Shown here: positions 768-18,864 of the stretch, piece by piece
Position numbering within the stretch: the stretch's first letter is position 1
Layout of the letters: every line of letters begins with the position of its first letter
DNA from: Trypanosoma brucei
Lineage: Eukaryota
Assembly: GCA_000002445.1 (NCBI GenBank)
Contig: CP000069.1
Coordinates: forward strand, 320,001-384,000
Length of the DNA: 64,000 nt
Direction: 5' to 3'
Translations under genes and position numbers: made by a program
Notes under the pieces: model-generated
Seen by the model: the letters and a program-made list of their open reading frames with translations, nothing else
Told to the model about the DNA's origin: nothing
Database searches by the model: none

Positions 768-812
768 CACTTTACTGGTTTCTATTTTCCCTCTTTGATG
801 TTCTTCTCGAAG
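768..812 (+). promoter_or_regulatory. Polypyrimidine tract plus AG; putative trans-splice acceptor region for cyclase copy 1. The same element recurs at 5522-5566, 10276-10320 and 15035-15079.
   Basis: The sequence ctttactggtttctattttccctctttgatgttcttctcg is followed by AG at 811-812 and 818-819. This is the classical kinetoplastid SL-addition signal. It lies inside the 5' end of the maximal ORF. Confidence 0.45.
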
Positions 813-952
813 ACACAAGATTTCACATACGAATAATACCACACATTCCCGAAAATATGTGCCGGCAGGAAGGTGGCGGCAGAGGATGTGTGTACCCTCA
901 TGGAAACTGCAGGCGGAACCTTACCGCAAGGAGCCCTGCAAGGCGTTACAGC

Positions 953-3900
953 ATGTACAAGCACTCACCTGTCATTACTGCTATGTCACTGCTACACTTG
1001 TTGCCTTTGCTACTCATGTGGATGCCACCTGTGTGCGCGGATGACAGTGCTGTGACGGTAAATGTGCTATCCATGATGTACAATTCGGAATATTACGTTG
1101 AGAAAGTGAACGCCATCAATGCCGGCTTTGACGCATCACTGAGTGCCCACGGTTGGAAGACGGGCTCCGGTGCGACAATATCTGTCATCCGTCCCCCATC
1201 GTACAACACCACAGCTGAGGACATATTTCAGCTGGGGGCGAAACAAAGTGAAGGGAAGTTATTAGTTGTATTTGGGCCCCTGGGTACTGACCCTGTCGTT
1301 TGGGTTCGTGATAAACTAAAGGAAAATGATCTTGTTGCCATCGCTCCTATTGCGTACTCCGGTGAGGTCCGTGGTTGGAACCCTCACCTCTATTCAATAA
1401 GTGTCGAACCCGATGCTGAGCTCCTCGCCCTCATTCGATACGCTGTTGTTTATCTGGGTCTGCCGCGTGTAGGTTTGATGTATGCGAAGGGTAATGGGTT
1501 TGACAAGGAGTCATATGAGTTTACCATGCGAATAATGGAAATGATGGGCCGCAAGCCATGTGGAGTGTTCGCTGTGGAGAGCAGTGGGGGTCGGGACGTC
1601 TTGGAGGGTGAATTGAATACCAAGTGGGGGCAATTTGTTGCTGCACGTCCGCAGGCTGTACTGCTATTTTCGTCAATCGCGGATGATACCACCGGGTGGT
1701 TTGTCAAGAAGATAGCACAGGACAACCGCACTGTGGACATGTACCTGCTCGCCCCTTCCAGTTTTCAACATTTTCTGATCAAAACATGGAGCGATGCGCT
1801 GGTGTCACTTAATCGTACGTTCACTCCTGGACAGCTGATCACAACTGGAACAGTGCCACTCGCTAGTGACAATCGGTCCTCGATGGTTCGGCACTTCCAG
1901 CGTGACATGGACAATTACCTGGATACAAACAGTGACTGGAAGGGCTTTGCGAAACCTGAACATTACCTTAAGGACGACAAATTAGGGGAGATGATGGTGT
2001 TTGGATGGCTTGCGGGAGAAGTTCTGTTTGAGGCCCTAAACAACGCTCCACAACTGACAAACCGTACTTCATTCATGGAATCTCTGTACAAGCAGCGTCG
2101 CTACGTGATTGATGACTTTGTGGTTGGTGACTTTGGTGGTGAGTGCGATGAGGGCGCTGCATTACAGGGTGCCATGTGTAATTGCAATCAAGGTGGCAGC
2201 ATGGCGCATATGAGAGTTGTTGTCAACAGCCTCAGTTTGAAGCCTATGAACAGCGCCTCTGTGACGTGGAGTGTATCGGAGTGCTCAAGTGCTAATGTGC
2301 AGGTGAGCGCACCGTTAATCGGACTGTATGTAGTCCTTACGGATGATAAAGTTGCACAACGTGCGAGCATGAGGTGGTCGTTGGGCGCTCGGAGCCTCGA
2401 GGAAGCGGATGATGTTGATAAGAGAATATTTTTTTACCCACTATACGCAGAGTCAGGAAATGCAGCGAAGACTTTTGAAAAAATTCGTGACACGAAGGCT
2501 GTAGCTGCAGTTCTTGGTGTTGTTACCGCTGATATTCTGAGCGTGCCGAATATGACTTTCATTGGCCCTATTCCATTGTCCCCCCGGTTGAACAAGTTCT
2601 GGAGAAACGTGATCCATCTGCAACCGCTACTTGCGCAGCAGCTATATGTGCTTGCTGTATACCTCTCCAACACCTCTTCCTTGGGAGTGAAGGCGCTGGT
2701 TCGGTGGAGTGAAGCATCTGAGGTTGTAGACACGCTTGATAAGTCATTGGTTACGTTTGGTGTGTCGCTTGATTCCAGTAAGACACTTGGTGATGGTGAC
2801 CCGATATCGTCATATCTCTCGGGTAATGGAGATGTGTTTTGTATTGGACTCACTCCCCCTGACGTTGCTGCGGTTGCGCGGCACCTTCAGACCCACCTCA
2901 GGGCCCGTGTATTCGTTGGGTTCGGTGACATTTTGTTGTTTTACCAGGAGTTTGTGGCTGCATTTAATGCGAGTAAAGAGTCTATTGCCAGCTCAGAGCG
3001 GCTCCTATTCGCGACGAGTTTCCCACACTGGGCAAAGAAGAACACGAAATCAGATATGGTTGCGAGATTTCATCGCCATGTAAATGAATCGCATTGGGAT
3101 CCACTAACGTTCCTGGGCTTTGCTACCACTCGGCTGCTTCAGGTTGTTATCTCCAATATGAGGAAGGTGAATGCAGAGCTGCTGGCAGACCGCATTTACA
3201 CGGAGTCCAACATCAGAGTGGATGACGTGCGATTTGGACCCTTCAGTGATGCGGAATGTGTTTCTGGTACGAGTGTTTCGGCAAATGAGTGTGCCTCAAA
3301 CTTTGGAGCCACAAACATTTCTGTATGGTCGATGGCGCGTGTGCTGAATTCAAGCTTGCCCAGGACACAGGTTGGGATGACACCGTCTATGGACTATGTT
3401 ATTCCGCAAGAGGGTCAACTCACACAGTCACAGATAGCTGGAATAATTTCTGGGTGTGTATCCGCCTTGTTATTATTTATTGCCCTTGGTGTGTTCCTAC
3501 ACATCTCCCTGCGGAACGCTCGTAACAACAACCGTGCAGCCAAGGAACCAACGGACCCCGTGACACTAATATTTACTGACATTGAGAGCAGCACTGCGTT
3601 GTGGGCTGCACACCCTGATCTGATGCCCGATGCCGTCGCCGCGCATCATCGTATGGTCCGTTCACTGATTGGGAGGTATAAGTGCTACGAAGTTAAAACT
3701 GTTGGGGATTCGTTCATGATAGCGAGTAAGAGTCCTTTCGCTGCCGTCCAACTCGCACAGGAACTACAGCTGTGTTTCTTGCATCATGACTGGGGAACAA
3801 ATGCACTTGATGATTCTTACCGTGAGTTTGAGGAGCAGCGTGCGGAGGGAGAATGTGAGTACACACCACCAACCGCGCATATGGATCCTGAAGTGTACAG

Positions 3901-4588
3901 TCGTTTGTGGAATGGCCTGCGTGTACGTGTTGGAATCCACACCGGGTTGTGCGACATCCGACACGATGAAGTGACGAAGGGATATGACTACTATGGGCGG
4001 ACTCCAAACATGGCAGCAAGGACGGAGAGTGTAGCAAATGGTGGTCAGGTGCTGATGACGCATGCGGCGTACCTGTCACTGTCAGCTGAGGAGCGTGAGC
4101 AAATTGATGTCACTGCACTTGGTGCTGTCGCACTTCGCGGTGTGAGTGATCCGGTTAAGATGTACCAGCTGAATACCGTGCCTAGTCGTAACTTTGCTGC
4201 ATTGCGGCTGGACCGCGAATACTTTTTTGATGAGGGCGAGGATGGCACGACAACCTCCACAAGCGACCACAGTTCTTCACGTGCGGAGCTGAGTGAATCA
4301 GCTCAGATAATTGCAACTGCACTACAGTCGCTGTTAAGCACGTTCAAGACAGCGCATCGTGAGAAGTTGTTGCTGCCGTATTGTGAGCGTTGGCGTGTGC
4401 CTCTTCCCCGTAAAGCTGCATCCGAGTGGGATGACGCCTACTGTGAGGAAGTGGTGCGTCGCATTGCGGTTAAGGTTGGGCGCGTCGCTGACCATGGCGC
4501 TCATAGTGGAAGTGAGTCGTCAAGTACGCAAGGCAGTTCATCAATTATTATCGTCCCCTTTTACGACATGCACCTTCAGGAATACTAA
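953..4588 (+). CDS. GRESAG4: Receptor-type adenylate cyclase (GRESAG4/ESAG4-like), tandem copy 1
   Basis: The maximal ORF is 764-4588 (1274 aa). It has a signal-peptide-like segment (MSLLHLLPLLLMWMPPVCA), a large extracellular domain, one TM helix (IAGIISGCVSALLLFIALGVFLHISL) and a class III cyclase domain with the LIFTDIESSTALW, KTVGDSFM and GRTPNMAARTES motifs. The start is placed at the in-frame ATG at 953 because 768-812 is a polypyrimidine tract followed by an AG (a likely splice acceptor). The ATGs at 764 (ORF-maximal) and 980 are alternative starts. Confidence 0.85.
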   Translation: MYKHSPVITAMSLLHLLPLLLMWMPPVCADDSAVTVNVLSMMYNSEYYVEKVNAINAGFDASLSAHGWKTGSGATISVIRPPSYNTTAEDIFQLGAKQSEGKLLVVFGPLGTDPVVWVRDKLKENDLVAIAPIAYSGEVRGWNPHLYSISVEPDAELLALIRYAVVYLGLPRVGLMYAKGNGFDKESYEFTMRIMEMMGRKPCGVFAVESSGGRDVLEGELNTKWGQFVAARPQAVLLFSSIADDTTGWFVKKIAQDNRTVDMYLLAPSSFQHFLIKTWSDALVSLNRTFTPGQLITTGTVPLASDNRSSMVRHFQRDMDNYLDTNSDWKGFAKPEHYLKDDKLGEMMVFGWLAGEVLFEALNNAPQLTNRTSFMESLYKQRRYVIDDFVVGDFGGECDEGAALQGAMCNCNQGGSMAHMRVVVNSLSLKPMNSASVTWSVSECSSANVQVSAPLIGLYVVLTDDKVAQRASMRWSLGARSLEEADDVDKRIFFYPLYAESGNAAKTFEKIRDTKAVAAVLGVVTADILSVPNMTFIGPIPLSPRLNKFWRNVIHLQPLLAQQLYVLAVYLSNTSSLGVKALVRWSEASEVVDTLDKSLVTFGVSLDSSKTLGDGDPISSYLSGNGDVFCIGLTPPDVAAVARHLQTHLRARVFVGFGDILLFYQEFVAAFNASKESIASSERLLFATSFPHWAKKNTKSDMVARFHRHVNESHWDPLTFLGFATTRLLQVVISNMRKVNAELLADRIYTESNIRVDDVRFGPFSDAECVSGTSVSANECASNFGATNISVWSMARVLNSSLPRTQVGMTPSMDYVIPQEGQLTQSQIAGIISGCVSALLLFIALGVFLHISLRNARNNNRAAKEPTDPVTLIFTDIESSTALWAAHPDLMPDAVAAHHRMVRSLIGRYKCYEVKTVGDSFMIASKSPFAAVQLAQELQLCFLHHDWGTNALDDSYREFEEQRAEGECEYTPPTAHMDPEVYSRLWNGLRVRVGIHTGLCDIRHDEVTKGYDYYGRTPNMAARTESVANGGQVLMTHAAYLSLSAEEREQIDVTALGAVALRGVSDPVKMYQLNTVPSRNFAALRLDREYFFDEGEDGTTTSTSDHSSSRAELSESAQIIATALQSLLSTFKTAHREKLLLPYCERWRVPLPRKAASEWDDAYCEEVVRRIAVKVGRVADHGAHSGSESSSTQGSSSIIIVPFYDMHLQEY

Positions 4589-5706
4589 CCTTGTCATTGA
4601 TGATATTCGTAGAGTAGCAGTAACACACCGGATTTCTGTTGGGTCGCCATTATTACGATGAAGCCGTTGCCCATCGGCCGATGGCTCGCAATGTAAATGA
4701 ATGTTATATGCATTAATAGTGCCAGCGTTTAGTGACGTTCATGCTTATTTCAACAATATGTTTATTTTTTTTTAACTCTTGTTTTTATTTTCTTACATAT
4801 CAAATCTTCCAGTGGTAATTCTTCCCTTGTATGCCAACAGGAGTGCGTAGACCTGCATTATCTTTTAAAAAATACATATTACCTTCTTACGTGTTAACTT
4901 TGTGAAACATAACCTATGCGACATGATCTTTTCGAATGGTGGATATGCAAATGACTCTGCCCCAATGCCATGTGTCATGCTGTCCAGCACTCAGTGTTGG
5001 TGGTGACTTTATGAGCACCGCTTTAACTATTGTTTGGCAGTGCATTCCTTGTTTTTATGAAGTCAGGTTGATGCGCAGTGGTTGTCGTTATTTCTTTCCC
5101 TCATATATATACGCATGTGCATATTTCAGTATTTAAATACGTATGCTTACCTTGTTTGAGGTTCTATCATATTTGAAAAACATTTTTTTATTTTTGTTTT
5201 GTCTACCTCACTTTAATGCTATATTTATCCACTACGGCACAGCAGGTGGCACCTTCCTCACACAGTCCCATGGAGGTTTATTTGCGATTGCCCAGGAGGT
5301 GGAACAGGAGGGGGAATATGGGAGTTAGGCGATGCGTCACAATTGCACTTTGCCGCTCTTACGGTGAGTTAACCGAATATTCTTTCGTGTGTGAACCGTA
5401 GTATTTCCACCCTCCCAGGGTTGAGGGTTTAATATTTTGATTATGTCGCGATTGGTGACTTTCTATTTCTGTCCAATACGTCGCCGGGCATGATCTGCAT
5501 ATGTATTAAGCGCGCCGATGCCACTTTACTGGTTTCTATTTTCCCTCTTTGATATTCTTCTCGAAGACACAAGATTTCACATACGAATAATACCACACAT
5601 TACCGAAAATATGTGCCGGCAGGAAGGTGGCGGCAGAGGATGTGTGTACCCTCATGGAAACTGCAGGCGGAACCTTACCGCAAGGAGCCCTGCAAGGCGT
5701 TACAGC

Positions 5707-8700
5707 ATGTACAAGCACTCACCTGTCATTACTGCTATGTCACTGCTACACTTGTTGCCTTTGCTACTCATGTGGATGCCACCTGTGTGCGCGGATGACA
5801 GTGCTGTGACGGTAAATGTGCTATCCATGATGTACAATTCGGAATATTACGTTGAGAAAGTGAACGCCATCAATGCCGGCTTTGACGCATCACTGAGTGC
5901 CCACGGTTGGAAGACGGGCTCCGGTGCGACAATATCTGTCATCCGTCCCCCATCGTACAACACCACAGCTGAGGACATATTTCAGCTGGGGGCGAAACAA
6001 AGTGAAGGGAAGTTATTAGTTGTATTTGGGCCCCTGGGTACTGACCCTGTCGTTTGGGTTCGTGATAAACTAAAGGAAAATGATCTTGTTGCCATCGCTC
6101 CTATTGCGTACTCCGGTGAGGTCCGTGGTTGGAACCCTCACCTCTATTCAATAAGTGTCGAACCCGATGCTGAGCTCCTCGCCCTCATTCGATACGCTGT
6201 TGTTTATCTGGGTCTGCCGCGTGTAGGTTTGATGTATGCGAAGGGTAATGGGTTTGACAAGGAGTCATATGAGTTTACCATGCGAATAATGGAAATGATG
6301 GGCCGCAAGCCATGTGGAGTGTTCGCTGTGGAGAGCAGTGGGGGTCGGGACGTCTTGGAGGGTGAATTGAATACCAAGTGGGGGCAATTTGTTGCTACAC
6401 GTCCGCAGGCTGTACTGCTATTTTCGTCAATCGCGGATGATACCACCGGGTGGTTTGTCAAGAAGATAGCACAGGACAACCGCACTGTGGACATGTACCT
6501 GCTCGCCCCTTCCAGTTTTCAACATTTTCTGATCAAAACATGGAGCGATGCGCTGGTGTCACTTAATCGTACGTTCACTCCTGGACAGCTGATCACAACT
6601 GGAACAGTGCCACTCGCTAGTGACAATCGGTCCTCGATGGTTCGGCACTTCCAGCGTGACATGGACAATTACCTGGATACAAACAGTGACTGGAAGGGCT
6701 TTGCGAAACCTGAACATTACCTTAAGGACGACAAATTAGGGGAGATGATGGTGTTTGGATGGCTTGCGGGAGAAGTTCTGTTTGAGGCCCTAAACAACGC
6801 TCCACAACTGACAAACCGTACTTCATTCATGGAATCTCTGTACAAGCAGCGTCGCTACGTGATTGATGACTTTGTGGTTGGTGACTTTGGTGGTGAGTGC
6901 GATGAGGGCGCTGCATTACAGGGTGCCATGTGTAATTGCAATCAAGGTGGCAGCATGGCGCATATGAGAGTTGTTGTCAACAGCCTCAGTTTGAAGCCTA
7001 TGAACAGCGCCTCTGTGACGTGGAGTGTATCGGAGTGCTCAAGTGCTAATGTGCAGGTGAGCGCACCGTTAATCGGACTGTATGTAGTCCTTACGGATGA
7101 TAAAGTTGCACAACGTGCGAGCATGAGGTGGTCGTTGGGCGCTCGGAGCCTCGAGGAAGCGGATGATGTTGATAAGAGAATATTTTTTTACCCACTATAC
7201 GCAGAGTCAGGAAATGCAGCGAAGACTTTTGAAAAAATTCGTGACACGAAGGCTGTAGCTGCAGTTCTTGGTGTTGTTACCGCTGATATTCTGAGCGTGC
7301 CGAATATGACTTTCATTGGCCCTATTCCACTGTTCCCCCGGTTGAACAAGTTCTGGAGAAACGTGATCCATCTGCAACCGCTACTTGCGCAGCAGCTATA
7401 TGTGCTTGCTGTATACCTCTCCAACACCTCTTCCTTGGGAGTGAAGGCGCTTGTTCGCGGGGGTGAAGCATCTGAGGTTGTAGACACGCTTGATAAGTCA
7501 TTGGTTACGTTTGGTGTGTCGCTTGATTCCAGTAAGACACTTGGTGATGGTGACCCGATATCGTCATATCTCTCGGGTAATGGAGATGTGTTTTGTATTG
7601 GACTCACTCCCCCTGACGTTGCTGCGGTTGCGCGGCACCTTCAGACCCACCTCAGGGCCCGTGTATTCGTTCCATTCAATGACATTTTGTTGTTTTACCA
7701 GGAGTTTGTGGTTGCGTTTAATGCGAGTAAAGAGTCTATTGCCAGCTCAGAGCGGCTCCTATTCGCGACGAGTTTCCCACACTGGGCGGAGAAGAACACG
7801 AAATCAGATATGGTTGCGAGATTTCATCGCCATGTAAATGAATCGCATTGGGATCCACTAACGTTCCTGGGCTTTGCTACCACTCGGCTGCTTCAGGTTG
7901 TTATCTCCAATATGAAGAAAGTGAATGCAGAGCTGCTGGCAGACCGCATTTACACGGAGTCCAACATCAGAGTGGATGACGTGCGATTTGGACCCTTCAG
8001 TGATGCGGAATGTGTTTCTGGTACGAGTGTTTCGGCAAATGAGTGTGCCTCAAACTTTGGAGCCACAAACATTTCTGTATGGTCGATGGCGCGTGTGCTG
8101 AATTCAAGCTTGCCCAGGACACAGGTTGGGATGACACCGTCTATGGACTATGTTATTCCGCAAGAGGGTCAACTCACACAGTCACAGATAGCTGGAATAA
8201 TTTCTGGGTGTGTATCCGCCTTGTTATTATTTATTGCCCTTGGTGTGTTCCTACACATCTCCCTGCGGAACGCTCGTAACAACAACCGTGCACCCAAGGA
8301 GCCAACGGACCCCGTGACACTAATATTTACTGACATTGAGAGCAGCACTGCGTTGTGGGCTGCACACCCTGATCTGATGCCCGATGCCGTCGCCGCGCAT
8401 CATCGTATGGTCCGTTCACTGATTGGGAGGTATAAGTGCTACGAAGTTAAAACTGTTGGGGATTCGTTCATGATAGCGAGTAAGAGTCCTTTCGCTGCCG
8501 TCCAACTCGCACAGGAATTACAGCTGTGTTTCTTGCATCATGACTGGGGAACAAATGCAGTTGATGATTCTTACCGTGAGTTTGAGGAGCAGCGTGCGGA
8601 GGGAGAATGTGAGTACACACCACCAACCGCGCATATGGATCCTGAAGTGTACAGTCGTTTGTGGAATGGCCTGCGTGTACGTGTTGGAATCCACACCGGG

Positions 8701-9342
8701 TTGTGCGACATCCGACACGATGAAGTGACGAAGGGATATGACTACTATGGGCGGACTCCAAACATGGCAGCAAGGACGGAGAGTGTAGCAAATGGTGGTC
8801 AGGTGCTGATGACGCATGCGGCGTACATGTCGCTGTCAGCTGAGGATCGTAAGCAAATTGATGTCACTGCACTTGGTGCTGTCGCACTTCGCGGTGTGAG
8901 TGATCCGGTTAAGATGTACCAGCTGAATACCGTGCCTAGTCGTAACTTTGCTGCATTGCGGCTGGACCGCGAATACTTTTTTGATGAGGGCGAGGATGGC
9001 ACGACAACCTCCACAAGCGACCACAGTTCTTCACGTGCGGAGCTGAGTGAATCAGCTCAGATAATTGCAACTGCACTACAGTCGCTGTTAAGCACGTTCA
9101 AGACAGCGCATCGTGAGAAGTTGTTGCTGCCGTATTGTGAGCGTTGGCGTGTGCCTCTTCCCCGTAAAGCTGCATCCGAGTGGGATGACGCCTACTGTGA
9201 GGAAGTGGTGCGTCGCATTGCGGTTAAGGTTGGGCGCGTCGCTGACCATGGCGCTCATAGTGGAAGTGAGTCTTCAAGTACGCAAGGCAGTTCATCAATT
9301 ATTATCGTCCCCTTTTACGACATGCACCTTCAGGAATACTAA
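5707..9342 (+). CDS. GRESAG4: Receptor-type adenylate cyclase (GRESAG4-like), tandem copy 2
   Basis: The maximal ORF is 5518-9342 (1274 aa). It has the same architecture as copy 1 and differs from it by about a dozen mostly nonsynonymous substitutions (e.g. A->T, S->F, WS->GG, GFGD->PFND). Confidence 0.85.
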   Translation: MYKHSPVITAMSLLHLLPLLLMWMPPVCADDSAVTVNVLSMMYNSEYYVEKVNAINAGFDASLSAHGWKTGSGATISVIRPPSYNTTAEDIFQLGAKQSEGKLLVVFGPLGTDPVVWVRDKLKENDLVAIAPIAYSGEVRGWNPHLYSISVEPDAELLALIRYAVVYLGLPRVGLMYAKGNGFDKESYEFTMRIMEMMGRKPCGVFAVESSGGRDVLEGELNTKWGQFVATRPQAVLLFSSIADDTTGWFVKKIAQDNRTVDMYLLAPSSFQHFLIKTWSDALVSLNRTFTPGQLITTGTVPLASDNRSSMVRHFQRDMDNYLDTNSDWKGFAKPEHYLKDDKLGEMMVFGWLAGEVLFEALNNAPQLTNRTSFMESLYKQRRYVIDDFVVGDFGGECDEGAALQGAMCNCNQGGSMAHMRVVVNSLSLKPMNSASVTWSVSECSSANVQVSAPLIGLYVVLTDDKVAQRASMRWSLGARSLEEADDVDKRIFFYPLYAESGNAAKTFEKIRDTKAVAAVLGVVTADILSVPNMTFIGPIPLFPRLNKFWRNVIHLQPLLAQQLYVLAVYLSNTSSLGVKALVRGGEASEVVDTLDKSLVTFGVSLDSSKTLGDGDPISSYLSGNGDVFCIGLTPPDVAAVARHLQTHLRARVFVPFNDILLFYQEFVVAFNASKESIASSERLLFATSFPHWAEKNTKSDMVARFHRHVNESHWDPLTFLGFATTRLLQVVISNMKKVNAELLADRIYTESNIRVDDVRFGPFSDAECVSGTSVSANECASNFGATNISVWSMARVLNSSLPRTQVGMTPSMDYVIPQEGQLTQSQIAGIISGCVSALLLFIALGVFLHISLRNARNNNRAPKEPTDPVTLIFTDIESSTALWAAHPDLMPDAVAAHHRMVRSLIGRYKCYEVKTVGDSFMIASKSPFAAVQLAQELQLCFLHHDWGTNAVDDSYREFEEQRAEGECEYTPPTAHMDPEVYSRLWNGLRVRVGIHTGLCDIRHDEVTKGYDYYGRTPNMAARTESVANGGQVLMTHAAYMSLSAEDRKQIDVTALGAVALRGVSDPVKMYQLNTVPSRNFAALRLDREYFFDEGEDGTTTSTSDHSSSRAELSESAQIIATALQSLLSTFKTAHREKLLLPYCERWRVPLPRKAASEWDDAYCEEVVRRIAVKVGRVADHGAHSGSESSSTQGSSSIIIVPFYDMHLQEY

Positions 9343-10460
9343 CCTTGTCATTGATGATATTCGTAGAGTAGCAGTAACACACCGGATTTCTGTTGGGTCG
9401 CCATTATTACGATGAAGCCGTTGCCCATCGGCCGATGGCTCGCAATGTAAATGAATGTTATATGCATTAATAGTGCCAGCGTTTAGTGACGTTCATGCTT
9501 ATTTCAACAATATGTTTATTTTTTTTTAACTCTTGTTTTTATTTTCTTACATATCAAATCTTCCAGTGGTAATTCTTCCCTTGTATGCCAACAGGAGTGC
9601 GTAGACCTGCATTATCTTTTAAAAAATACATATTACCTTCTTACGTGTTAACTTTGTGAAACATAACCTATGCGACATGATCTTTTCGAATGGTGGATAT
9701 GCAAATGACTCTGCCCCAATGCCATGTGTCATGCTGTCCAGCACTCAGTGTTGGTGGTGACTTTATGAGCACCGCTTTAACTATTGTTTGGCAGTGCATT
9801 CCTTGTTTTTATGAAGTCAGGTTGATGCGCAGTGGTTGTCGTTATTTCTTTCCCTCATATATATACGCATGTGCATATTTCAGTATTTAAATACGTATGC
9901 TTACCTTGTTTGAGGTTCTATCATATTTGAAAAACATTTTTTTATTTTTGTTTTGTCTACCTCACTTTAATGCTATATTTATCCACTACGGCACAGCAGG
10001 TGGCACCTTCCTCACACAGTCCCATGGAGGTTTATTTGCGATTGCCCAGGAAGTGGAACAGGAGGGGGAATATGGGAGTTAGGCGATGCGTCACAATTGC
10101 ACTTTGCCGCTCTTACGGTGAGTTAACCGAATATTCTTTCGTGTGTGAACCGTAGTATTTCCACCCTCCCAGGGTTGAGGGTTTAATATTTTGATTATGT
10201 CGCGATTGGTGACTTTCTATTTCTGTCCAATACGTCGCCGGGCATGATCTGCATATGTATTAAGCGCGCCGATGCCACTTTACTGGTTTCTATTTTCCCT
10301 CTTTGATATTCTTCTCGAAGACACAAGATTTCACATACGAATAATACCACACATTACCGAAAATATGTGCCGGCAGGAAGGTGGCGGCAGAGGATGTGTG
10401 TACCCTCATGGAAACTGCAGGCGGAACCTTACCGCAAGGAGCCCTGCAAGGCGTTACAGC

Positions 10461-13400
10461 ATGTACAAGCACTCACCTGTCATTACTGCTATGTCACTGC
10501 TACACTTGTTGCCTTTGCTACTCATGTGGATGCCACCTGTGTGCGCGGATGACAGTGCTGTGACGGTAAATGTGCTATCCATGATGTACAATTCGGAATA
10601 TTACGTTGAGAAAGTGAACGCCATCAATGCCGGCTTTGACGCATCACTGAGTGCCCACGGTTGGAAGACGGGCTCCGGTGCGACAATATCTGTCATCCGT
10701 CCCCCATCGTACAACACCACAGCTGAGGACATATTTCAGCTGGGGGCGAAACAAAGTGAAGGGAAGTTATTAGTTGTATTTGGGCCCCTGGGTACTGACC
10801 CTGTCGTTTGGGTTCGTGATAAACTAAAGGAAAATGATCTTGTTGCCATCGCTCCTATTGCGTACTCCGGTGAGGTCCGTGGTTGGAACCCTCACCTCTA
10901 TTCAATAAGTGTCGAACCCGATGCTGAGCTCCTCGCCCTCATTCGATACGCTGTTGTTTATCTGGGTCTGCCGCGTGTAGGTTTGATGTATGCGAAGGGT
11001 AATGGGTTTGACAAGGAGTCATATGAGTTTACCATGCGAATAATGGAAATGATGGGCCGCAAGCCATGTGGAGTGTTCGCTGTGGAGAGCAGTGGGGGTC
11101 GGGACGTCTTGGAGGGTGAATTGAATACCAAGTGGGGGCAATTTGTTGCTACACGTCCGCAGGCTGTACTGCTATTTTCGTCAATCGCGGATGATACCAC
11201 CGGGTGGTTTGTCAAGAAGATAGCACAGGACAACCGCACTGTGGACATGTACCTGCTCGCCCCTTCCAGTTTTCAACATTTTCTGATCAAAACATGGAGC
11301 GATGCGCTGGTGTCACTTAATCGTACGTTCACTCCTGGACAGCTGATCACAACTGGAACAGTGCCACTCGCTAGTGACAATCGGTCCTCGATGGTTCGGC
11401 ACTTCCAGCGTGACATGGACAATTACCTGGATACAAACAGTGACTGGAAGGGCTTTGCGAAACCTGAACATTACCTTAAGGACGACAAATTAGGGGAGAT
11501 GATGGTGTTTGGATGGCTTGCGGGAGAAGTTCTGTTTGGGGCCCTAAACAACGCTCCACAACTGACAAACCGTACTTCATTCATGGAATCTCTGTACAAG
11601 CAGCGTCGCTACGTGATTGATGACTTTGTGGTTGGTGACTTTGGTGGTGAGTGCGATGAGGGCGCTGCATTACAGGGTGCCATGTGTAATTGCAATCAAG
11701 GTGGCAGCATGGCGCATATGAGAGTTGTTGATGACAGCCTCAGTTTGAAGCCTATGAAGAAAGGCTCTGTGACGTGGAGTGTATCGGAGTGCTCAAGTGC
11801 TAATGTGCGGGTGAGCGCACCGTTAATCGGACTGTATGTAGTCCTTACGGATGATAAAGTTGCACAACGTGCGAGCATGAGGTGGTCGTTGGGCGCTCGG
11901 AGCCTCGAGGAAGCGGATGATGTTGATAAGAGAATATTTTTCCATTCCTTAAAGGTTAATTTGAAAAATTTAACGCAATCACTTGAACAAGTAAGGGACA
12001 CGAAGGCTGTAGCTGCAGTTCTTGGTGTTGTTACCGCTGATATTCTGAGCGTGCCGAATATGACTTTCATTGGCCCTATTCCACTGTTCCCCCGGTTGAA
12101 CAAGTTCTGGAGAAACGTGATCCATCTGCAACCGCTACTTGCGCAGCAGCTATATGTGCTTGCTGTATACCTCTCCAACACCTCTTCCATGGGAGTGAAG
12201 GCGCTTGTTCGCGGGGGTGAAGCATCTGAGGTTGTAGACACGCTTGATAAGTCATTGGTTACGTTTGGTGTGTCGCTTGATTCCAGTAAGACACTTGGTG
12301 ATGATGACCCAATGTCGTCATATCTCTCGGGTAATGGAGATGTGTTTTGTATTGGACTCACTCCCCCTGACGTTGCTGCGGTTGCGCGGCACCTTCAGAC
12401 CCACCGCAGGGCCCGTGTATTCGTTCCATTCAATGACATTTTGTTGTTTTACCAGGAGTTTGTGGCTGCATTTAATGCGAGTAAAGAGTCTATTGCCAGC
12501 TCAGAGCGGCTCCTATTCGCGACGAGTTTCCCACACTGGGCGGAGAAGAACACGAAATCAGATATGGTTGCGAGATTTCATCGCCATGTAAATGAATCGC
12601 ATTGGGATCCACTAACGTTCCTGGGCTTTGCTACCACTCGGTTGCTTCAGGTTGTTATCTCCAATATGAGGAAGGTGAATGCAGAGCTGCTGGCAGACCG
12701 CATTTACACGGAGTCCAACATCAGAGTGGATGACGTGCGATTTGGACCCTTCAGTGATGCGGAATGTGTTTCTGGTACGAGTGTTTCGGCAAATGAGTGT
12801 GCCTCAAACTTTGGAGCCACAAACATTTCTGTATGGTCGATGGCGCGTGTGCTGAATTCAAGCTTGCCCAGAACACAGGTTGGGATGACACCGTCTATGG
12901 ACTATGTTATTCCGCAAGAGGGTCAACTAACACAGTCACAGATAGCTGGAATAATTTCTGGGTGTGTATCCGCCTTGTTATTATTTATTGCCCTTGGTGT
13001 GTTCCTACACATCTCCCTGCGGAACGCTCGTAACAACAACCGTGCACCCAAGGAACCAACGGACCCCGTGACACTAATATTTACTGACATTGAGAGCAGC
13101 ACTGCGTTGTGGGCTGCACACCCTGATCTGATGCCCGATGCCGTCGCCGCGCATCATCGTATGGTCCGTTCACTGATTGGGAGGTATAAGTGCTACGAAG
13201 TTAAAACTGTTGGGGATTCGTTCATGATAGCGAGTAAGAGTCCTTTGGCTGCCGTCCAACTCGCACAGGAATTACAACTGTGTTTCTTGCATCATGACTG
13301 GGGAACAAATGCAGTTGATGATTCTTACCGTGAGTTTGAGGAGCAGCGTGCGGAGGGAGAATGTGAGTACACACCACCAACCGCGCATATGGATCCTGAA

Positions 13401-14096
13401 GTGTACAGTCGTTTGTGGAATGGCCTGCGTGTACGTGTTGGAATCCACACCGGGTTGTGCGACATCCGACACGATGAAGTGACGAAGGGATATGACTACT
13501 ATGGGCGGACTCCAAACATGGCAGCAAGGACAGAGAGTGTAGCAAATGGTGGTCAGGTGCTGATGACGCATGCGGCGTACATGTCGCTGTCAGCTGAGGA
13601 TCGTAAGCAAATTGATGTCACTGCACTTGGTGCTGTCGCACTTCGCGGTGTGAGTGATCCGGTTAAGATGTACCAGCTGAATACCGTGCCTAGTCGTAAC
13701 TTTGCTGCATTACGGCTGGACCGCGAATACTTTTTTGATGAGGGCGAGGATGGCACGACAACCTCCACGAGCGACCACAGTTCTTCACGTGCGGAGCTGA
13801 GTGAATCAGCTCAGATAATTGCAACTGCACTACAGTCGCTGTTAAGCACGTTCAAGACAGCGCATCGTGAGAAGTTGTTGCTGCCGTATTGTGAGCGTTG
13901 GCGTGTGCCTCTTCCCCGTAAAGCTGCATCCGAGTGGGATGACGCCTACTGTGAGGAAGTGGTGCGTCGCATTGCAGTTAAGGTTGGGCGCGTCGCTGAC
14001 CATGGCGCTCATAGTGGAAGTGAGTCGTCAAGTACGCAAGGCAGTTCATCAATTATTATCGTCCCCTTTTACGACATGCACCTTCAGGAATACTAA
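10461..14096 (+). CDS. GRESAG4: Receptor-type adenylate cyclase (GRESAG4-like), tandem copy 3 (mosaic variant)
   Basis: The maximal ORF is 10272-14096 (1274 aa). A replaced patch at 11939-11996 (RIFFHSLKVNLKNLTQSLEQV instead of RIFFYPLYAESGNAAKTFEKI) and a second patch at 11728-11770 (VVDDSLSLKPMKKGS) distinguish it from its neighbours. Confidence 0.85.
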   Translation: MYKHSPVITAMSLLHLLPLLLMWMPPVCADDSAVTVNVLSMMYNSEYYVEKVNAINAGFDASLSAHGWKTGSGATISVIRPPSYNTTAEDIFQLGAKQSEGKLLVVFGPLGTDPVVWVRDKLKENDLVAIAPIAYSGEVRGWNPHLYSISVEPDAELLALIRYAVVYLGLPRVGLMYAKGNGFDKESYEFTMRIMEMMGRKPCGVFAVESSGGRDVLEGELNTKWGQFVATRPQAVLLFSSIADDTTGWFVKKIAQDNRTVDMYLLAPSSFQHFLIKTWSDALVSLNRTFTPGQLITTGTVPLASDNRSSMVRHFQRDMDNYLDTNSDWKGFAKPEHYLKDDKLGEMMVFGWLAGEVLFGALNNAPQLTNRTSFMESLYKQRRYVIDDFVVGDFGGECDEGAALQGAMCNCNQGGSMAHMRVVDDSLSLKPMKKGSVTWSVSECSSANVRVSAPLIGLYVVLTDDKVAQRASMRWSLGARSLEEADDVDKRIFFHSLKVNLKNLTQSLEQVRDTKAVAAVLGVVTADILSVPNMTFIGPIPLFPRLNKFWRNVIHLQPLLAQQLYVLAVYLSNTSSMGVKALVRGGEASEVVDTLDKSLVTFGVSLDSSKTLGDDDPMSSYLSGNGDVFCIGLTPPDVAAVARHLQTHRRARVFVPFNDILLFYQEFVAAFNASKESIASSERLLFATSFPHWAEKNTKSDMVARFHRHVNESHWDPLTFLGFATTRLLQVVISNMRKVNAELLADRIYTESNIRVDDVRFGPFSDAECVSGTSVSANECASNFGATNISVWSMARVLNSSLPRTQVGMTPSMDYVIPQEGQLTQSQIAGIISGCVSALLLFIALGVFLHISLRNARNNNRAPKEPTDPVTLIFTDIESSTALWAAHPDLMPDAVAAHHRMVRSLIGRYKCYEVKTVGDSFMIASKSPLAAVQLAQELQLCFLHHDWGTNAVDDSYREFEEQRAEGECEYTPPTAHMDPEVYSRLWNGLRVRVGIHTGLCDIRHDEVTKGYDYYGRTPNMAARTESVANGGQVLMTHAAYMSLSAEDRKQIDVTALGAVALRGVSDPVKMYQLNTVPSRNFAALRLDREYFFDEGEDGTTTSTSDHSSSRAELSESAQIIATALQSLLSTFKTAHREKLLLPYCERWRVPLPRKAASEWDDAYCEEVVRRIAVKVGRVADHGAHSGSESSSTQGSSSIIIVPFYDMHLQEY

Positions 14097-15219
14097 CCTT
14101 GTCATTGATGATATTCGTAGAGTAGCAGTAACACACCGGATTTCTGTTGGGTCGCCATTATTACGATGAAGCCGTTGCCCATCGGCCGATGGCTCGCAAT
14201 GTAAATGAATGTTATATGCATTAATAGTGCCAGCGTTTAGTGACGTTCATGCTTATTTCAACAATATGTTTATTTTTTTTTAACTCTTGTTTTTATTTTC
14301 TTACATATCAAATCTTCCAGTGGTAATTCTTCCCTTGTATGCCAACAGGAGTGCGTAGACCTGCATTATCTTTTAAAAAATACATATTACCTTCTTACGT
14401 GTTAACTTTGTGAAACATAACCTATGCGACATGATCTTTTCGAATGATGGATATGCAAATGACTCTGCCCCAATGCCATGTGTCATGCTGTCCAGCACTC
14501 AGTGTTGGTGGTGACTTTATGAGCACCGCTTTAACTATTGTTTGGCAGTGCATTCCTTGTTTTTATGAAGTCAGGTTGATGCGCAGTGGTTGCCGTTATT
14601 TCTTTCCTTTGTAAATATACATAAATATATGCATATTTCAGTATTTAAATACGTATGCTTACCTTGTTTGAGGTTCTATCATATTTGAAAAACATTTTTT
14701 TTATTTTTGTTTTGTCTACCTCACTTTAATGCTATATTTATCCACTACGGCACAGCAGGTGGCACCTTCCTCACACAGTCCCATGGAGGTTTATTTGCGA
14801 TTGCCCAGGAGGTGGAACAGGAGGGGGAATATGGGAGTTAGGCGATGCGTCACAATTGCACTTTGCCGCTCTTACGGTGAGTTAACCGAATATTCTTTCG
14901 TGTGTGAACCGTAGTATTTCCACCCTCCCAGGGTTGAGGGTTTAATATTTTGATTATGTCGCGATTGGTGACTTTCTATTTCTGTCCAATACGTCGCCGG
15001 GCATGATCTGCATATGTATTAAGCGCGCCGATGCCACTTTACTGGTTTCTATTTTCCCTCTTTGATATTCTTCTCGAAGACACAAGATTTCACATACGAA
15101 TAATACCACACATTACCGAAAATATGTGCCGGCAGGAAGGTGGCGGAAGAGGATGTGTGTACCCTCATGGAAACTGCAGGCGGAACCTTACCGCAAGGAG
15201 CCCTGCAAGGCGTTACAGC

Positions 15220-18200
15220 ATGTACAAGCACTTACCTGTCATTACTGCTATATCACTGCTACACTTGTTGCCTTTGCTACTCATGTGGATGCCACCTGTG
15301 TGCGCGGATGACAGTGCTGTGACGGTAAATGTGCTATCCATGATGTACAATTCGGAATATTACGTTGAGAAAGTGAACGCCATCAATGCCGGCTTTGACG
15401 CATCACTGAGTGCCCACGGTTGGAAGACGGGCTCCGGTGCGACAATATCTGTCATCCGTCCCCCATCGTACAACACCACAGCTGAGGACATATTTCAGCT
15501 GGGGGCGAAACAAAGTGAAGGGAAGTTATTAGTTGTATTCGGGCCCCTGGGTACTGACCCTGTCGTTTGGGTTCGTGATAAACTAAAGGAAAATGATCTT
15601 GTTGCCATCGCTCCTATTGCGTACTCCAGTGAGGTCCGTGGTTTTAATCCCCACCTCTATTCAATAAGTGTCGAACCCAATGCTGAGCTCCTCGCCCTCA
15701 TTCGATACGCTGTTGTTTATCTGGGTCTGCCGCGTGTGGGTTTGATGTATGCGAAGGGTAATGGGTTTGACAAGGAGTCATATGAGTTTACCATGCGAAT
15801 AATGGAAATGATGGGCCGCAAGCCATGTGGAGTGTTCGCTGTGGAGAGCAGTGGGGGTCGGGACGTCTTGGAGGGTGAATTGAATACCAAGTGGGGGCAA
15901 TTTGTTGCTACACGTCCGCAGGCTGTACTGCTATTTTCGTCAATCGCGGATGATACCACCGGGTGGTTTGTCAAGAAGATAGCACAGGACAACCGCACTG
16001 TGGACATGTACCTGCTCGCCCCTTCCAGTTTTCAACATTTTCTGATCAAAACATGGAGCGATGCGCTGGTGTCACTTAATCGTACGTTCACTCCTGGACA
16101 GCTGATCACAACTGGAACAGTGCCACTCGCTAGTGACAATCGGTCCTCGATGGTTCGGCACTTCCAGCGTGACATGGACAATTACCTGGATACAAACAGT
16201 GACTGGAAGGGCTTTGCGAAACCTGAACATTACCTTAAGGACGACAAATTAGGGGAGATGATGGTGTTTGGATGGCTTGCGGGAGAAGTTCTGTTTGAGG
16301 CCCTAAACAACGCTCCACAACTGACAAACCGTACTTCATTCATGGAATCTCTGTACAAGCAGCGTCGCTACGTGATTGATGACTTTGTGGTTGGTGACTT
16401 TGGTGGTGAGTGCGATGAGGGCGCTGCATTACAGGGTGCCATGTGTAATTGCAATCAAGGTGGCAGCATGGCGCATATGAGAGTTGTTGATGACAGCCTC
16501 AGTTTGAAGCCTATGAACAGCGCCTCTGTGACGTGGAGTGTATCGGAGTGCTCAAGTGCTAATGTGCGGGTGAGCGCACCGTTAATCGGACTGTATGTAG
16601 TCCTTACGGATGATAAAGTTGCACAACGTGCGAGCATGAGGTGGTCGTTGGGCGCTCGGAGCCTCGAGGAAGCGGATGATGTTGATAAGAGAATATTTTT
16701 TTACCCACTATACGCAGAGTCAGGAAATGCAGCGAAGACTTTTGAAAAAATTCGCGACACGAAGGCTGTAGCTGCAGTTCTTGGTGTTGTTACCGCTGAT
16801 ATTCTGAGCGTGCCGAATATGACTTTCATTGGTACTCTTCCCCTGTCCCCCCGGTTGAACAAGTTCTGGAGAAACGTGATCCATCTGCAACCGCTACTTG
16901 CGCAGCAGCTATATGTGCTTGCTGTATACCTCTCCAACACCTCTTCCATGGGAGTGAAGGCGCTTGTTCGCGGGGGTGAAGCATCTGAGGTTGTAGACAC
17001 GCTTGATAAGTCATTGGTTACGTTTGGTGTGTCGCTTGATTCCAGTAAGACACTTGGTGATGATGACCCAATGTCGTCATATCTCTCGGGTAATGGAGAT
17101 GTGTTTTGTATTGGACTCACTCCCCCTGACGTTGCTGCGGTTGCGCGGCACCTTCAGACCCACCTCAGGGCCCGTGTATTCGTTCCATTCAATGACATTT
17201 TGTTGTTTTACCAGGAGTTTGTGGCTGCATTTAATGCGAGTAAAGAGTCTATTGCCAGCTCAGAGCGGCTCCTATTCGCGACGAGTTTCCCACACTGGGC
17301 GGAGAAGAACACGAAATCAGATATGGTTGCGAGATTTCATCGCCATGTAAATGAATCGCATTGGGATCCACTAACGTTCCTGGGCTTTGCTACCACTCGG
17401 CTGCTTCAGGTTGTTATCTCCAATATGAGGAAGGTGAATGCAGAGCTGCTGGCAGACCGCATTTACACGGAGTCCAACATCAGAGTGGATGACGTGCGAT
17501 TTGGACCCTTCAGTGATGCGGAATGTGTTTCTGGTACGAGTGTTTCGGCAAATGAGTGTGCCTCAAACTTTGGAGCCACAAACATTTCTGTATGGTCGAT
17601 GGCGCGTGTGCTGAATTCAAGCTTGCCCAGAACACAGGTTGGGATGACACCGTCTATGGACTATGTTATTCCGCGAGAGGGTCAACTCACACAGTCACAG
17701 ATAGCTGGAATAATTTCTGGGTGTGTATCCGCCTTGTTATTATTTATTGCCCTTGGTGTGTTCCTACACATCTCCCTGCGGAACGCTCGTAACAACAACC
17801 GTGCACCCAAGGAACCAACGGACCCCGTGACACTAATATTTACTGACATTGAGAGCAGCACTGCGTTGTGGGCTGCACACCCTGATCTGATGCCCGATGC
17901 CGTCGCCGCGCATCATCGTATGGTCCGTTCACTGATTGGGAGGTATAACTGCTACGAAGTCAAAACTGTTGGGGATTCGTTCATGATAGCGAGTAAGAGT
18001 CCTTTCGCTGCCGTCCAACTCGCACAGGAATTACAACTGTGTTTCTTGCATCATGACTGGGGAACAAATGCAGTTGATGATTCTTACCGTGAGTTTGAGG
18101 AGCAGCGTGCGGAGGGAGAATGTGAGTACACACCACCAACCGCGCATATGGATCCTGAAGTGTACAGTCGTTTGTGGAATGGCCTGCGTGTACGTGTTGG

Positions 18201-18864
18201 AATCCACACCGGGTTGTGCGACATCCGACACGATGAAGTGACGAAGGGATATGACTACTATGGGCGGACTCCAAACATGGCAGCAAGGACGGAGAGTGTA
18301 GCAAATGGTGGTCAGGTGCTGATGACGCATGCGGCGTACATGTCGCTGTCAGCTGAGGATCGTAAGCAAATTGATGTCACTGCACTTGGTGCTGTCGCAC
18401 TTCGCGGTGTGAGTGATCCGGTTAAGATGTACCAGCTGAATACCGTGCCTAGTCGTAACTTTGCTGCATTGCGGCTGGACCGCGAATACTTTTTTGATGA
18501 GGGCGAGGATGGCACGACAACCTCCACAAGCGACCACAGTTCTTCACGTGCGGAGCTGAGTGAATCAGCTCAGATAATTGCAACTGCACTACAGTCGCTG
18601 TTAAGCACGTTCAAGACAGCGCATCGTGAGAAGTTGTTGCTGCCGTATTGTGAGCGTTGGCGTGTGCCTCTTCCCCGTAAAGCCGCATCCGAGTGGGATG
18701 ACGCCTACTGTGAGGAAGTGGTGCGTCGCATTGCAGTTAAGGTTGGGCGTGTCGCTGACCATGGCGCTCATAGTGGAAGTGAGTCGTCAAGTACGCAAGG
18801 CAGTTCATCAATTATTATCGTCCCCTTTTACGACCCTTGCTACCGTGAAATGTGTTCTTTTTAA
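15220..18864 (+). CDS. GRESAG4: Receptor-type adenylate cyclase (GRESAG4-like), tandem copy 4 (last copy, altered C-terminus)
   Basis: The maximal ORF is 15031-18864 (1277 aa). It is identical to the others until ~18829, then ends ...VPFYDPCYREMCSF instead of ...VPFYDMHLQEY. Unique substitutions are SSEVRGFNPH and GTLPLSPR. Confidence 0.85.
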   Translation: MYKHLPVITAISLLHLLPLLLMWMPPVCADDSAVTVNVLSMMYNSEYYVEKVNAINAGFDASLSAHGWKTGSGATISVIRPPSYNTTAEDIFQLGAKQSEGKLLVVFGPLGTDPVVWVRDKLKENDLVAIAPIAYSSEVRGFNPHLYSISVEPNAELLALIRYAVVYLGLPRVGLMYAKGNGFDKESYEFTMRIMEMMGRKPCGVFAVESSGGRDVLEGELNTKWGQFVATRPQAVLLFSSIADDTTGWFVKKIAQDNRTVDMYLLAPSSFQHFLIKTWSDALVSLNRTFTPGQLITTGTVPLASDNRSSMVRHFQRDMDNYLDTNSDWKGFAKPEHYLKDDKLGEMMVFGWLAGEVLFEALNNAPQLTNRTSFMESLYKQRRYVIDDFVVGDFGGECDEGAALQGAMCNCNQGGSMAHMRVVDDSLSLKPMNSASVTWSVSECSSANVRVSAPLIGLYVVLTDDKVAQRASMRWSLGARSLEEADDVDKRIFFYPLYAESGNAAKTFEKIRDTKAVAAVLGVVTADILSVPNMTFIGTLPLSPRLNKFWRNVIHLQPLLAQQLYVLAVYLSNTSSMGVKALVRGGEASEVVDTLDKSLVTFGVSLDSSKTLGDDDPMSSYLSGNGDVFCIGLTPPDVAAVARHLQTHLRARVFVPFNDILLFYQEFVAAFNASKESIASSERLLFATSFPHWAEKNTKSDMVARFHRHVNESHWDPLTFLGFATTRLLQVVISNMRKVNAELLADRIYTESNIRVDDVRFGPFSDAECVSGTSVSANECASNFGATNISVWSMARVLNSSLPRTQVGMTPSMDYVIPREGQLTQSQIAGIISGCVSALLLFIALGVFLHISLRNARNNNRAPKEPTDPVTLIFTDIESSTALWAAHPDLMPDAVAAHHRMVRSLIGRYNCYEVKTVGDSFMIASKSPFAAVQLAQELQLCFLHHDWGTNAVDDSYREFEEQRAEGECEYTPPTAHMDPEVYSRLWNGLRVRVGIHTGLCDIRHDEVTKGYDYYGRTPNMAARTESVANGGQVLMTHAAYMSLSAEDRKQIDVTALGAVALRGVSDPVKMYQLNTVPSRNFAALRLDREYFFDEGEDGTTTSTSDHSSSRAELSESAQIIATALQSLLSTFKTAHREKLLLPYCERWRVPLPRKAASEWDDAYCEEVVRRIAVKVGRVADHGAHSGSESSSTQGSSSIIIVPFYDPCYREMCSF

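What the first reader, a model, noticed from the sequence alone, without database searches (positions are those of the whole stretch)
11728..11996. Two short replacement patches in cyclase copy 3 look like a gene-conversion mosaic from a diverged paralogue
At 11939-11996 copy 3 carries tccattccttaaaggttaatttgaaaaatttaacgcaatcacttgaacaagtaagggac, where the other copies have a completely different 58-nt segment. The frame is kept (RIFFHSLKVNLKNLTQSLEQVRDTK vs RIFFYPLYAESGNAAKTFEKIRDTK). A second patch at 11728-11770 changes VVVNSLSLKPMNSAS to VVDDSLSLKPMKKGS, and copy 4 shares only the first half of that change. Sharp-edged patches inside otherwise identical genes are the signature of short-tract gene conversion among family members.
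Basis: seen in the sequence. Interest (0 to 1): 0.5.

Follow-up and report, generated by a model that had tools for sequence, protein, structure and literature searches.

The report
Swapped cassette in trypanosome cyclase array
Copy 3 of a tandem Trypanosoma brucei surface adenylate-cyclase gene array really does carry sharp-edged alternative segments, but they are an old, shared "cassette" shuffled among array members by gene conversion, which has already been reported for this array.

Summary
Copy 3 (10272-14096) differs from copies 1, 2 and 4 at 29 of 55 nt in 11942-11996, in frame. It also differs at 11731-33 (change shared with copy 4) and 11759-64.

The window is T. b. brucei TREU927 chromosome 6, the GRESAG4.1-type array starting at Tb927.6.760, which has 5 copies.

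The patch is not an assembly chimera and is not private to copy 3. The same "H" cassette occurs in:
- the fifth array copy just left of the window (protein level);
- the 1990s GRESAG 4.1 protein entry (Q99279);
- three of four T. b. gambiense DAL972 copies, nucleotide-identical.

The other "Y" cassette (copies 1, 2, 4) is identical in the fourth DAL972 copy.

The three sub-patches occur in 5 of 8 possible combinations, and four-gamete tests fail between sites 12-26 nt apart. This indicates short-tract intra-array exchange.

H diverges from a sister paralogue as much as its flanks do (71%), whereas Y is the outlier (53%). No donor for Y was found.

Jackson 2007 and 2010 already reported gene conversion and mosaicism for this array (PHI p<0.001). 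The finding is ordinary and already known.

The parts
10272..14096 (+). Cyclase copy 3. It equals TREU927 protein XP_845202/AAZ11643 when read from the annotated ATG at 10365. It carries sub-patch states DD, KKG and H.
11942..11996 (+). H cassette in copy 3 (FHSLKVNLKNLTQSLEQVR). It has 29/55 nt and 14/19 codons different from the Y form. GC is 31%, against 50% for the CDS.
11759..11764 (+). KKG sub-patch (NSA in copies 1, 2 and 4). All four DAL972 copies, copy 0 and GRESAG 4.1 have KKG.
11731..11733 (+). DD sub-patch (VN in copies 1 and 2). Shared with copy 4, copy 0, DAL972 copies 570 and 572, and GRESAG 4.1.
764..4588 (+). Cyclase copy 1 (AAZ11641), states VN-NSA-Y. Its Y cassette lies at 2434-2488.
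5518..9342 (+). Cyclase copy 2 (AAZ11642), states VN-NSA-Y. Its Y cassette lies at 7188-7242.
15031..18864 (+). Cyclase copy 4 (AAZ11644), states DD-NSA-Y. Its Y cassette lies at 16701-16755. It is the last array member and has a different C-terminal tail.

Best explanation
The patches are alternative states of three closely spaced dimorphic segments: DD/VN, KKG/NSA and the 55-nt H/Y cassette. They lie in the second extracellular periplasmic-binding-protein-like domain of the GRESAG4.1-type receptor adenylate cyclases of the five-copy TREU927 chromosome 6 array that starts at Tb927.6.760.

[quoted passage not shown] Each copy is therefore a different mosaic.

Copy 3 (with copy 0) carries the H cassette, which is the family-typical and probably ancestral form. 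The Y cassette of copies 1, 2 and 4 is the divergent one. I infer that it entered the array once, from a more distant cyclase paralogue or as a relic of an older diverged copy, and then spread within the array.

Shown: the dimorphism, its sharing across copies, strains and subspecies, and the recombination signal. Inferred: the direction of change, the origin of Y and the molecular mechanism.
For: Identity of the locus:
- Copy 3 read from Met32 is XP_845202 of TREU927. The cluster holds 5 TREU927 and 4 DAL972 array proteins.
- The catalytic domain is 231/234 identical to PDB 1FX2, GRESAG 4.1.
- Pfam finds PF25495 + PF25493 + PF00211.

Sharing of the cassettes:
- Copy 0 (P0034) and GRESAG 4.1 (Q99279, P0002) have VVDDSLSLKPMKKGS and FFHSLKVNLKNLTQSLEQVRDTK.
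- DAL972 copies 569, 570 and 572 have the H cassette 55/55 nt identical to copy 3.
- DAL972 copy 571 has the Y cassette identical to copy 4.

Recombination:
- The observed combinations are DD-KKG-H, VN-NSA-Y, DD-NSA-Y, VN-KKG-H and VN-KKG-Y.
- Four gametes are seen between 11731-33 and 11759-64, between 11809 and 11942, and between 11942-94 and 12008. In all, 2382 of 4371 informative site pairs are incompatible.
- Variable sites outside the patch are also clustered: 48% of neighbouring sites lie within 10 nt, against 20% expected.

Direction of change:
- H against sister paralogue P0003 is 70.9% identical, the same as the flanks (70-71%). Y against P0003 is 52.7%.
- At protein level H matches P0003-P0006 at 11-12/18 and T. 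congolense P0007 at 8/18. Y matches them at 5-6/18.

Literature:
- Jackson 2010, Table 2, array 42 (Tb927.6.760; 5 Tbb and 4 Tbg copies): PHI p<0.001, GARD 11 breakpoints.
- Jackson 2007, Table S2: one 261-bp conversion event in array 42, GENECONV p=1.9e-7.
Against: - No donor for Y was found. The best similarity outside the array is only 7/18 residues, to a T. congolense cyclase, so the ectopic origin of Y is inferred.
- The direction rests on one sister-paralogue DNA sequence and about 20 family proteins.
- Copy 0 was available only as protein.
- The DAL972 array has assembly gaps, and its assembly may have leaned on the TREU927 reference. Its copy-by-copy haplotypes are therefore less certain than the existence of both cassettes.
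- Site 11809 (G in copies 3 and 4, A elsewhere) lies between KKG and H. No single continuous tract explains copy 3 or copy 4. Two tracts or patchy repair must be assumed.
Confidence: 0.8

Rival explanations
1. Copy 3 was recently converted over two short tracts by a diverged GRESAG4/ESAG4 paralogue outside the array, and copies 1, 2 and 4 keep the original sequence.
For: The edges are sharp and the frame is kept. Synonymous as well as replacement differences are present. The H cassette does resemble the sister paralogues P0003-P0006. Other micro-patches in the array do match outside paralogues, for example the copy-1 segment YLSLSAEEREQ, which equals P0004-P0006.
Against: H is only 70.9% identical to the P0003 DNA, the same as the unconverted flanks, so it is not a recent import from that lineage. 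The identical cassette sits in copy 0, in GRESAG 4.1 and in 3 of 4 DAL972 copies. It is therefore old and is the commoner form overall.
Confidence: 0.07
2. Assembly chimera. Reads from another paralogue were merged into copy 3 when the near-identical repeats were assembled.
For: Tandem 4.75-kb repeats at 99% identity are hard to assemble. The DAL972 array has gaps.
Against: The same patch combination occurs in an independently cloned GRESAG 4.1 protein entry, in a different subspecies' genome and in a second TREU927 copy.
Confidence: 0.03
3. Relic of incomplete homogenisation. The array descends from two much more diverged neighbouring genes. Concerted evolution erased the differences everywhere except a few islands too divergent (47% identity) to be crossed by heteroduplex, and these persist as cassettes.
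For: Only two discrete forms exist, with no intermediates, and each is conserved between subspecies. The 5' third shows subspecies-specific fixed differences typical of concerted evolution. Several other dimorphic islands exist.
Against: It requires near-complete homogenisation of 4.7 kb, spacers included, around a 55-nt island. Y is more distant from H than the sister paralogues are, which implies a very old partner gene that has left no other trace.
Confidence: 0.1

Closest known systems
Mosaic tandem gene arrays of T. brucei shaped by 'allelic' (intra-array) gene conversion: Jackson 2007, BMC Evol Biol 7:54 (PMC1855330); Jackson et al. 2010, PLoS NTD 4:e658 (PMC2854126)
   Same: It is the same array: no. 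42, adenylate cyclase GRESAG4, Tb927.6.760, chromosome 6, with 5 copies in T. b. brucei and 4 in T. b. gambiense. Published results are PHI p<0.001, GARD 11 breakpoints and one catalogued 261-bp conversion event in the CDS at positions 1370-1631. If position 1 is the annotated ATG, that interval is window 11734-11995, which is the KKG-to-H/Y span.
   Different: The papers, as far as I read them, give no cassette-level description and no direction of change, and do not note that the two forms are nucleotide-identical across subspecies. The coordinate frame and copy numbering of Table S2 could not be verified. Its 'donor 1 or 4, recipient 5' does not map simply onto my reading.
GRESAG 4.1 receptor-type adenylate cyclase (UniProt Q99279; catalytic domain PDB 1FX2)
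   Same: The architecture is the same. The catalytic domain is 231/234 identical. Q99279 carries exactly the copy-3 states DD, KKG and H.
   Different: Q99279 is 89% identical overall. Part of the difference consists of frameshift-like stretches in the old entry. It comes from another strain.
Segmental gene conversion that builds mosaic VSG genes in T. brucei
   Same: Short homologous tracts are exchanged between family members of a surface-protein gene family in the same organism. This comparison rests on established knowledge; PMC2854126 discusses VSG mosaics.
   Different: Here the exchange is among chromosome-internal tandem copies, not into a telomeric expression site. There is no evidence of programmed or selected switching.

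Membership tests
Trypanosomatid receptor-type adenylate cyclase (GRESAG4/ESAG4 family) | Two extracellular periplasmic-binding-protein-like domains followed by a class III cyclase catalytic domain | tested here: met
   PF25495 (E=3e-53), PF25493 (E=1.5e-127) and PF00211 (E=2e-42) occur in order in copies 3 and 4.
Trypanosomatid receptor-type adenylate cyclase (GRESAG4/ESAG4 family) | Close sequence identity to characterised GRESAG 4.1 | tested here: met
   PDB 1FX2 matches at E=8e-157, 231/234 identical. Copy 3 is in the same 90% cluster as the TREU927 GRESAG4 annotations.
Trypanosomatid receptor-type adenylate cyclase (GRESAG4/ESAG4 family) | N-terminal signal peptide and a single transmembrane helix before the catalytic domain | not tested
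   Hydrophobic stretches (LLHLLPLLLMWMPPVCA; IAGIISGCVSALLLFIALGVFLHI) are visible in the translation. No predictor was run.
Intra-array (interlocus) short-tract gene conversion mosaic | Differences clustered in sharp-edged tracts far beyond chance | tested here: met
   28 private sites fall in 55 nt, against a maximum of 8 in 100,000 random placements. Clustering also holds outside the patch.
Intra-array (interlocus) short-tract gene conversion mosaic | The same tract is present in another array member, which is a candidate donor or co-carrier | tested here: met
   Copy 0 (P0034) matches at protein level. DAL972 copies 569, 570 and 572 match at nucleotide level, 55/55.
Intra-array (interlocus) short-tract gene conversion mosaic | Phylogenetic incompatibility (four gametes) between nearby sites | tested here: met
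   5 of 8 sub-patch combinations are observed. Incompatible site pairs lie 12-26 nt apart. Published PHI p<0.001.
   H against P0003 is 70.9% in the tract and 70-71% in the flanks. Only one outside paralogue was available as DNA.
Ectopic conversion as the origin of the Y cassette | An identifiable donor carries a Y-like segment | tested here: inconclusive
   The best match is T. congolense P0038, at 7/18 residues. No T. brucei relative was retrieved. The TREU927 genome could not be searched as DNA.

The most novel reading that the evidence does not exclude
The H/Y cassette replaces the end of a beta-strand and a whole alpha-helix of the membrane-proximal ligand-binding-type domain. It could be a functionally distinct, selectively maintained dimorphism, for example in ligand specificity or antigenicity. 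It would be kept in both forms within the array across T. brucei subspecies, with gene conversion serving to vary the dosage of each form.
Probability: 0.12. Interest if true: 0.45.

Novelty: already known. Interest (0 to 1): 0.15.

Why it matters
It matters little beyond annotation. It is a clean worked example of how T. brucei tandem surface-receptor arrays hold a few old alternative cassettes and shuffle them by very short conversion tracts. It also shows that majority rule within one window can point the direction of change the wrong way. If the two cassettes differed in function, the array would encode receptor isoforms whose ratio recombination can tune. Nothing here shows that.

Tried and rejected
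Searches that gave nothing:
- A 151-aa fragment search of the 5.8-billion-protein set found nothing. This was a limit of the word index: the full-length query found the family.
- Exact-protein look-ups of TREU927 genes (copy 3 in long and short form, P0001, P0034) are not on record as gene positions. TREU927 DNA outside the window, including copy 0 and other paralogues, could therefore not be read.
- The exhaustive 50%-representative search with the Y-form fragment gave hits no better than 39% identical and no Y-like donor.
- A search seeded with the weakly Y-like T. congolense P0038 found no T. brucei relative.
- No tRNA or Rfam features are in the window.

Explanations rejected:
- A compensated frameshift or an inversion as the source of the patch.
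- An assembly chimera.
- Gradual hypermutation. There are only two discrete forms, each identical across subspecies.

Not done:
- I did not run a fold search. The structure model was used only to place the cassette on secondary structure.

Full report
**What is in the window**

The left 19 kb holds four head-to-tail ORFs of 1274-1277 codons: 764-4588, 5518-9342, 10272-14096 and 15031-18864, with a period of 4754-4759 nt. Each has two periplasmic-binding-protein-like domains (PF25495, PF25493) and a class III cyclase domain (PF00211). The catalytic domain is 231/234 identical to the crystallised T. brucei GRESAG 4.1 domain, 1FX2.

Copy 3, read from its 32nd codon (10365), is exactly XP_845202/AAZ11643 of T. 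b. brucei TREU927 chromosome 6. Its 90% cluster contains five consecutive TREU927 proteins (AAZ11640-44) and four T. b. gambiense DAL972 proteins (CBH11569-72).

The array therefore has a fifth member, here called copy 0 (AAZ11640). It lies just left of the window, which begins inside the copy 0 to copy 1 spacer.

Downstream genes on the opposite strand are a PUF protein, a protein with a GST N-terminal domain, NOT2, a myotubularin-like phosphatase and a SAC3/GANP-family protein.

**Checking the observation**

An alignment of the four copies shows 122 variable columns.
- Copy 3 differs from copies 1 and 2 at 29 of the 55 positions 11942-11996. There is no indel and identity is perfect on both sides.
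- Nineteen codons are affected. Fourteen change the residue. F526, L529 and R544 change only synonymously, and N535 and E541 are unchanged.
- The second patch is really two. 11731-33 (VN to DD) is shared by copies 3 and 4. 11759-64 (NSA to KKG) is in copy 3 only within the window.
The start coordinate is 2-3 nt early.
- Random placement of copy 3's 40 private sites never put more than 8 in a 55-nt window, against 28 observed.
- The two versions align best in register zero (47% identity, against 18-35% at other offsets). They are collinear diverged homologues, not a frameshift artefact.

**The patch is not private to copy 3 and is not an artefact**

Call the copy-3 version H and the version of copies 1, 2 and 4 Y.
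- At protein level, copy 0 and the old GRESAG 4.1 entry Q99279 both carry DD, KKG and H.
- I fetched the DAL972 array as DNA (L001 and L002).
- Three of its four copies carry an H cassette identical to copy 3 at all 55 positions.
- The fourth copy carries a Y cassette identical to copy 4.

Both forms therefore predate the separation of the two subspecies and have not changed since. That rules out an assembly chimera. It also rules out gradual hypermutation.

**Evidence for shuffling**

Across ten sequences the three segments occur as:

| Combination | Carriers |
|---|---|
| DD-KKG-H | copy 0, copy 3, D570, D572, GRESAG 4.1 |
| VN-NSA-Y | copies 1 and 2 |
| DD-NSA-Y | copy 4 |
| VN-KKG-H | D569 |
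| VN-KKG-Y | D571 |

These are five of the eight possible combinations.
- At DNA level all four gametes are present between 11731-33 and 11759-64 (26 nt apart), between 11809 and the cassette, and between the cassette and 12008 (12 nt apart).
- 2382 of 4371 informative site pairs are incompatible.
- Elsewhere copy 3 is most like copy 4. They share R482, M609, D647 and M650.
- Copy 0 sides with copies 1 and 2 at those same sites.
- Site 11809 lies between KKG and H and does not follow either. At least two tracts, or patchy repair of one heteroduplex, must be assumed.
- Other clustered micro-patches exist in copies 1, 2 and 4, so the whole array is a mosaic.

**Direction of change**

The only outside paralogue available as DNA is DAL972 P0003 (81% protein identity; L003).
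- It is 70.9% identical to H within the cassette and 70-71% identical in the flanks.
- It is only 52.7% identical to Y.
- Four sister paralogues (P0003-P0006) read FFHPLTVSSENVTQSLEQV. They match H at 11-12 of 18 positions and Y at 5-6.
- T. congolense P0007 matches H at 8 of 18.

H therefore behaves like native sequence that has co-diverged with its flanks, and Y is the foreign or derived segment.

**Where Y came from**

This is unresolved. Its best similarity outside the array is 7/18 residues, to a T. congolense cyclase (YPLSITSRGAAAAVREIN). A search seeded with that protein found no T. brucei relative.

Import from a distant cyclase paralogue and survival as an island of an older diverged copy both remain possible.

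**Structural context**

An AlphaFold2 model of residues 440-900 was made (mean pLDDT 78.7, pTM 0.80).
- It places the cassette on the end of strand E116-123 and the whole of helix H125-138. This is one beta-alpha unit of the second binding-protein-like domain.
- The block-mean pLDDT over the cassette is 75-91.
- DD and KKG lie in a low-confidence hairpin.
- The residues kept in both forms (L, N, E, R, D, plus F/L and V/I) are spaced as expected for the buried face of a helix. This is inference.

**Comparison with the literature**

Jackson et al. 2010 list this array in Table 2 as no. 42 (adenylate cyclase GRESAG4, Tb927.6.760, chromosome 6).
- Copies: 5 in T. b. brucei and 4 in T. b. gambiense.
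- Tests: PHI p<0.001, 2 LRT breakpoints and 11 GARD breakpoints.

Jackson 2007, Table S2, catalogues one conversion event in array 42: 261 bp, positions 1370-1631, CDS, GENECONV p=1.88e-7, donor '1 or 4', recipient '5'.
- If position 1 is the annotated ATG, this is window 11734-11995. That span runs from just after DD to the end of the cassette.
- Copies 1 and 4 in chromosomal order are the two H carriers.
- I could not verify that coordinate frame or the copy numbering.
- The donor and recipient assignment does not map simply onto my reading.

**Verdict**

Three points need correction:
- The exchange partner is within the array.
- The cassette is old and shared across subspecies.
- Copy 3 most likely keeps the ancestral form.

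The phenomenon, and this array in particular, are already in the literature, so novelty and interest are low.

Noticed in passing
window 4073-4097 (copy 1; copy-3 equivalent 13581-13605): A copy-1-private micro-patch (M to L, D to E, K to E, giving YLSLSAEEREQ) matches the sister paralogues P0004-P0006. It is a better candidate than the reported patch for ectopic conversion from outside the array.
   Followed up: partly
window 18835-18864 (copy 4 C-terminus; copy-3 equivalent 14076-14093): The last array copy ends in PCYREMCSF instead of MHLQEY, with a 9-nt insertion and an unrelated downstream spacer. The same tail is on the first DAL972 copy (CBH11569) and on a T. equiperdum fragment.
   Followed up: partly
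window 326-362 and 14593-14629, against 5085-5117 and 9839-9871: The intergenic spacers are also dimorphic, with a roughly 37-nt patch that includes a 4-nt indel. The spacers after copy 0 and copy 3 (the two H carriers) share one form, and those after copies 1 and 2 share the other. The assembled DAL972 array shows only the first form.
   Followed up: partly
window 10363-10747 (5' part of copy 3 and its equivalents): In the 5' third of the gene, the window's four TREU927 copies share bases that differ from the three DAL972 copies covered there. This is concerted evolution within each genome. The middle of the gene instead carries cassettes shared across subspecies.
   Followed up: no
proteins P0004 (Smp_112590) and P0031 (Smp_186530): Two 'Schistosoma mansoni' proteins are T. 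brucei-type GRESAG4 cyclases: one is 76% identical to copy 3, the other sits in the same 90% cluster. This is probably trypanosome contamination of that assembly.
   Followed up: no
protein P0002 (UniProt Q99279, GRESAG 4.1): The old entry has short stretches that read like frameshifts relative to all genomic copies. One example is ALHYRVPCVIAIKAAAWT against GAALQGAMCNCNQGGSMA; there is also a scrambled transmembrane region.
   Followed up: no
window 10272-10364 and the equivalent in each copy: The ORF is open for 31 codons upstream of the TREU927-annotated ATG (MPLYWFLFSLFD...). The DAL972 annotation uses the longer ORF.
   Followed up: no
window about 18900-30700: This is a convergent strand-switch region between the cyclase array (+) and the PUF, NOT2 and myotubularin-like genes (-). 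It has no ORF of 300 aa or more and no tRNA or Rfam hit. A/T-rich simple repeats lie at 22507-22567 and 29394-29546.
   Followed up: no
L001/L002 (DAL972 FN554969 109669-148161): The T. b. gambiense array has N-gaps at three copy boundaries. The third copy runs into unrelated sequence from about CDS column 2726 of the alignment. Copy number and order there are uncertain.
   Followed up: partly
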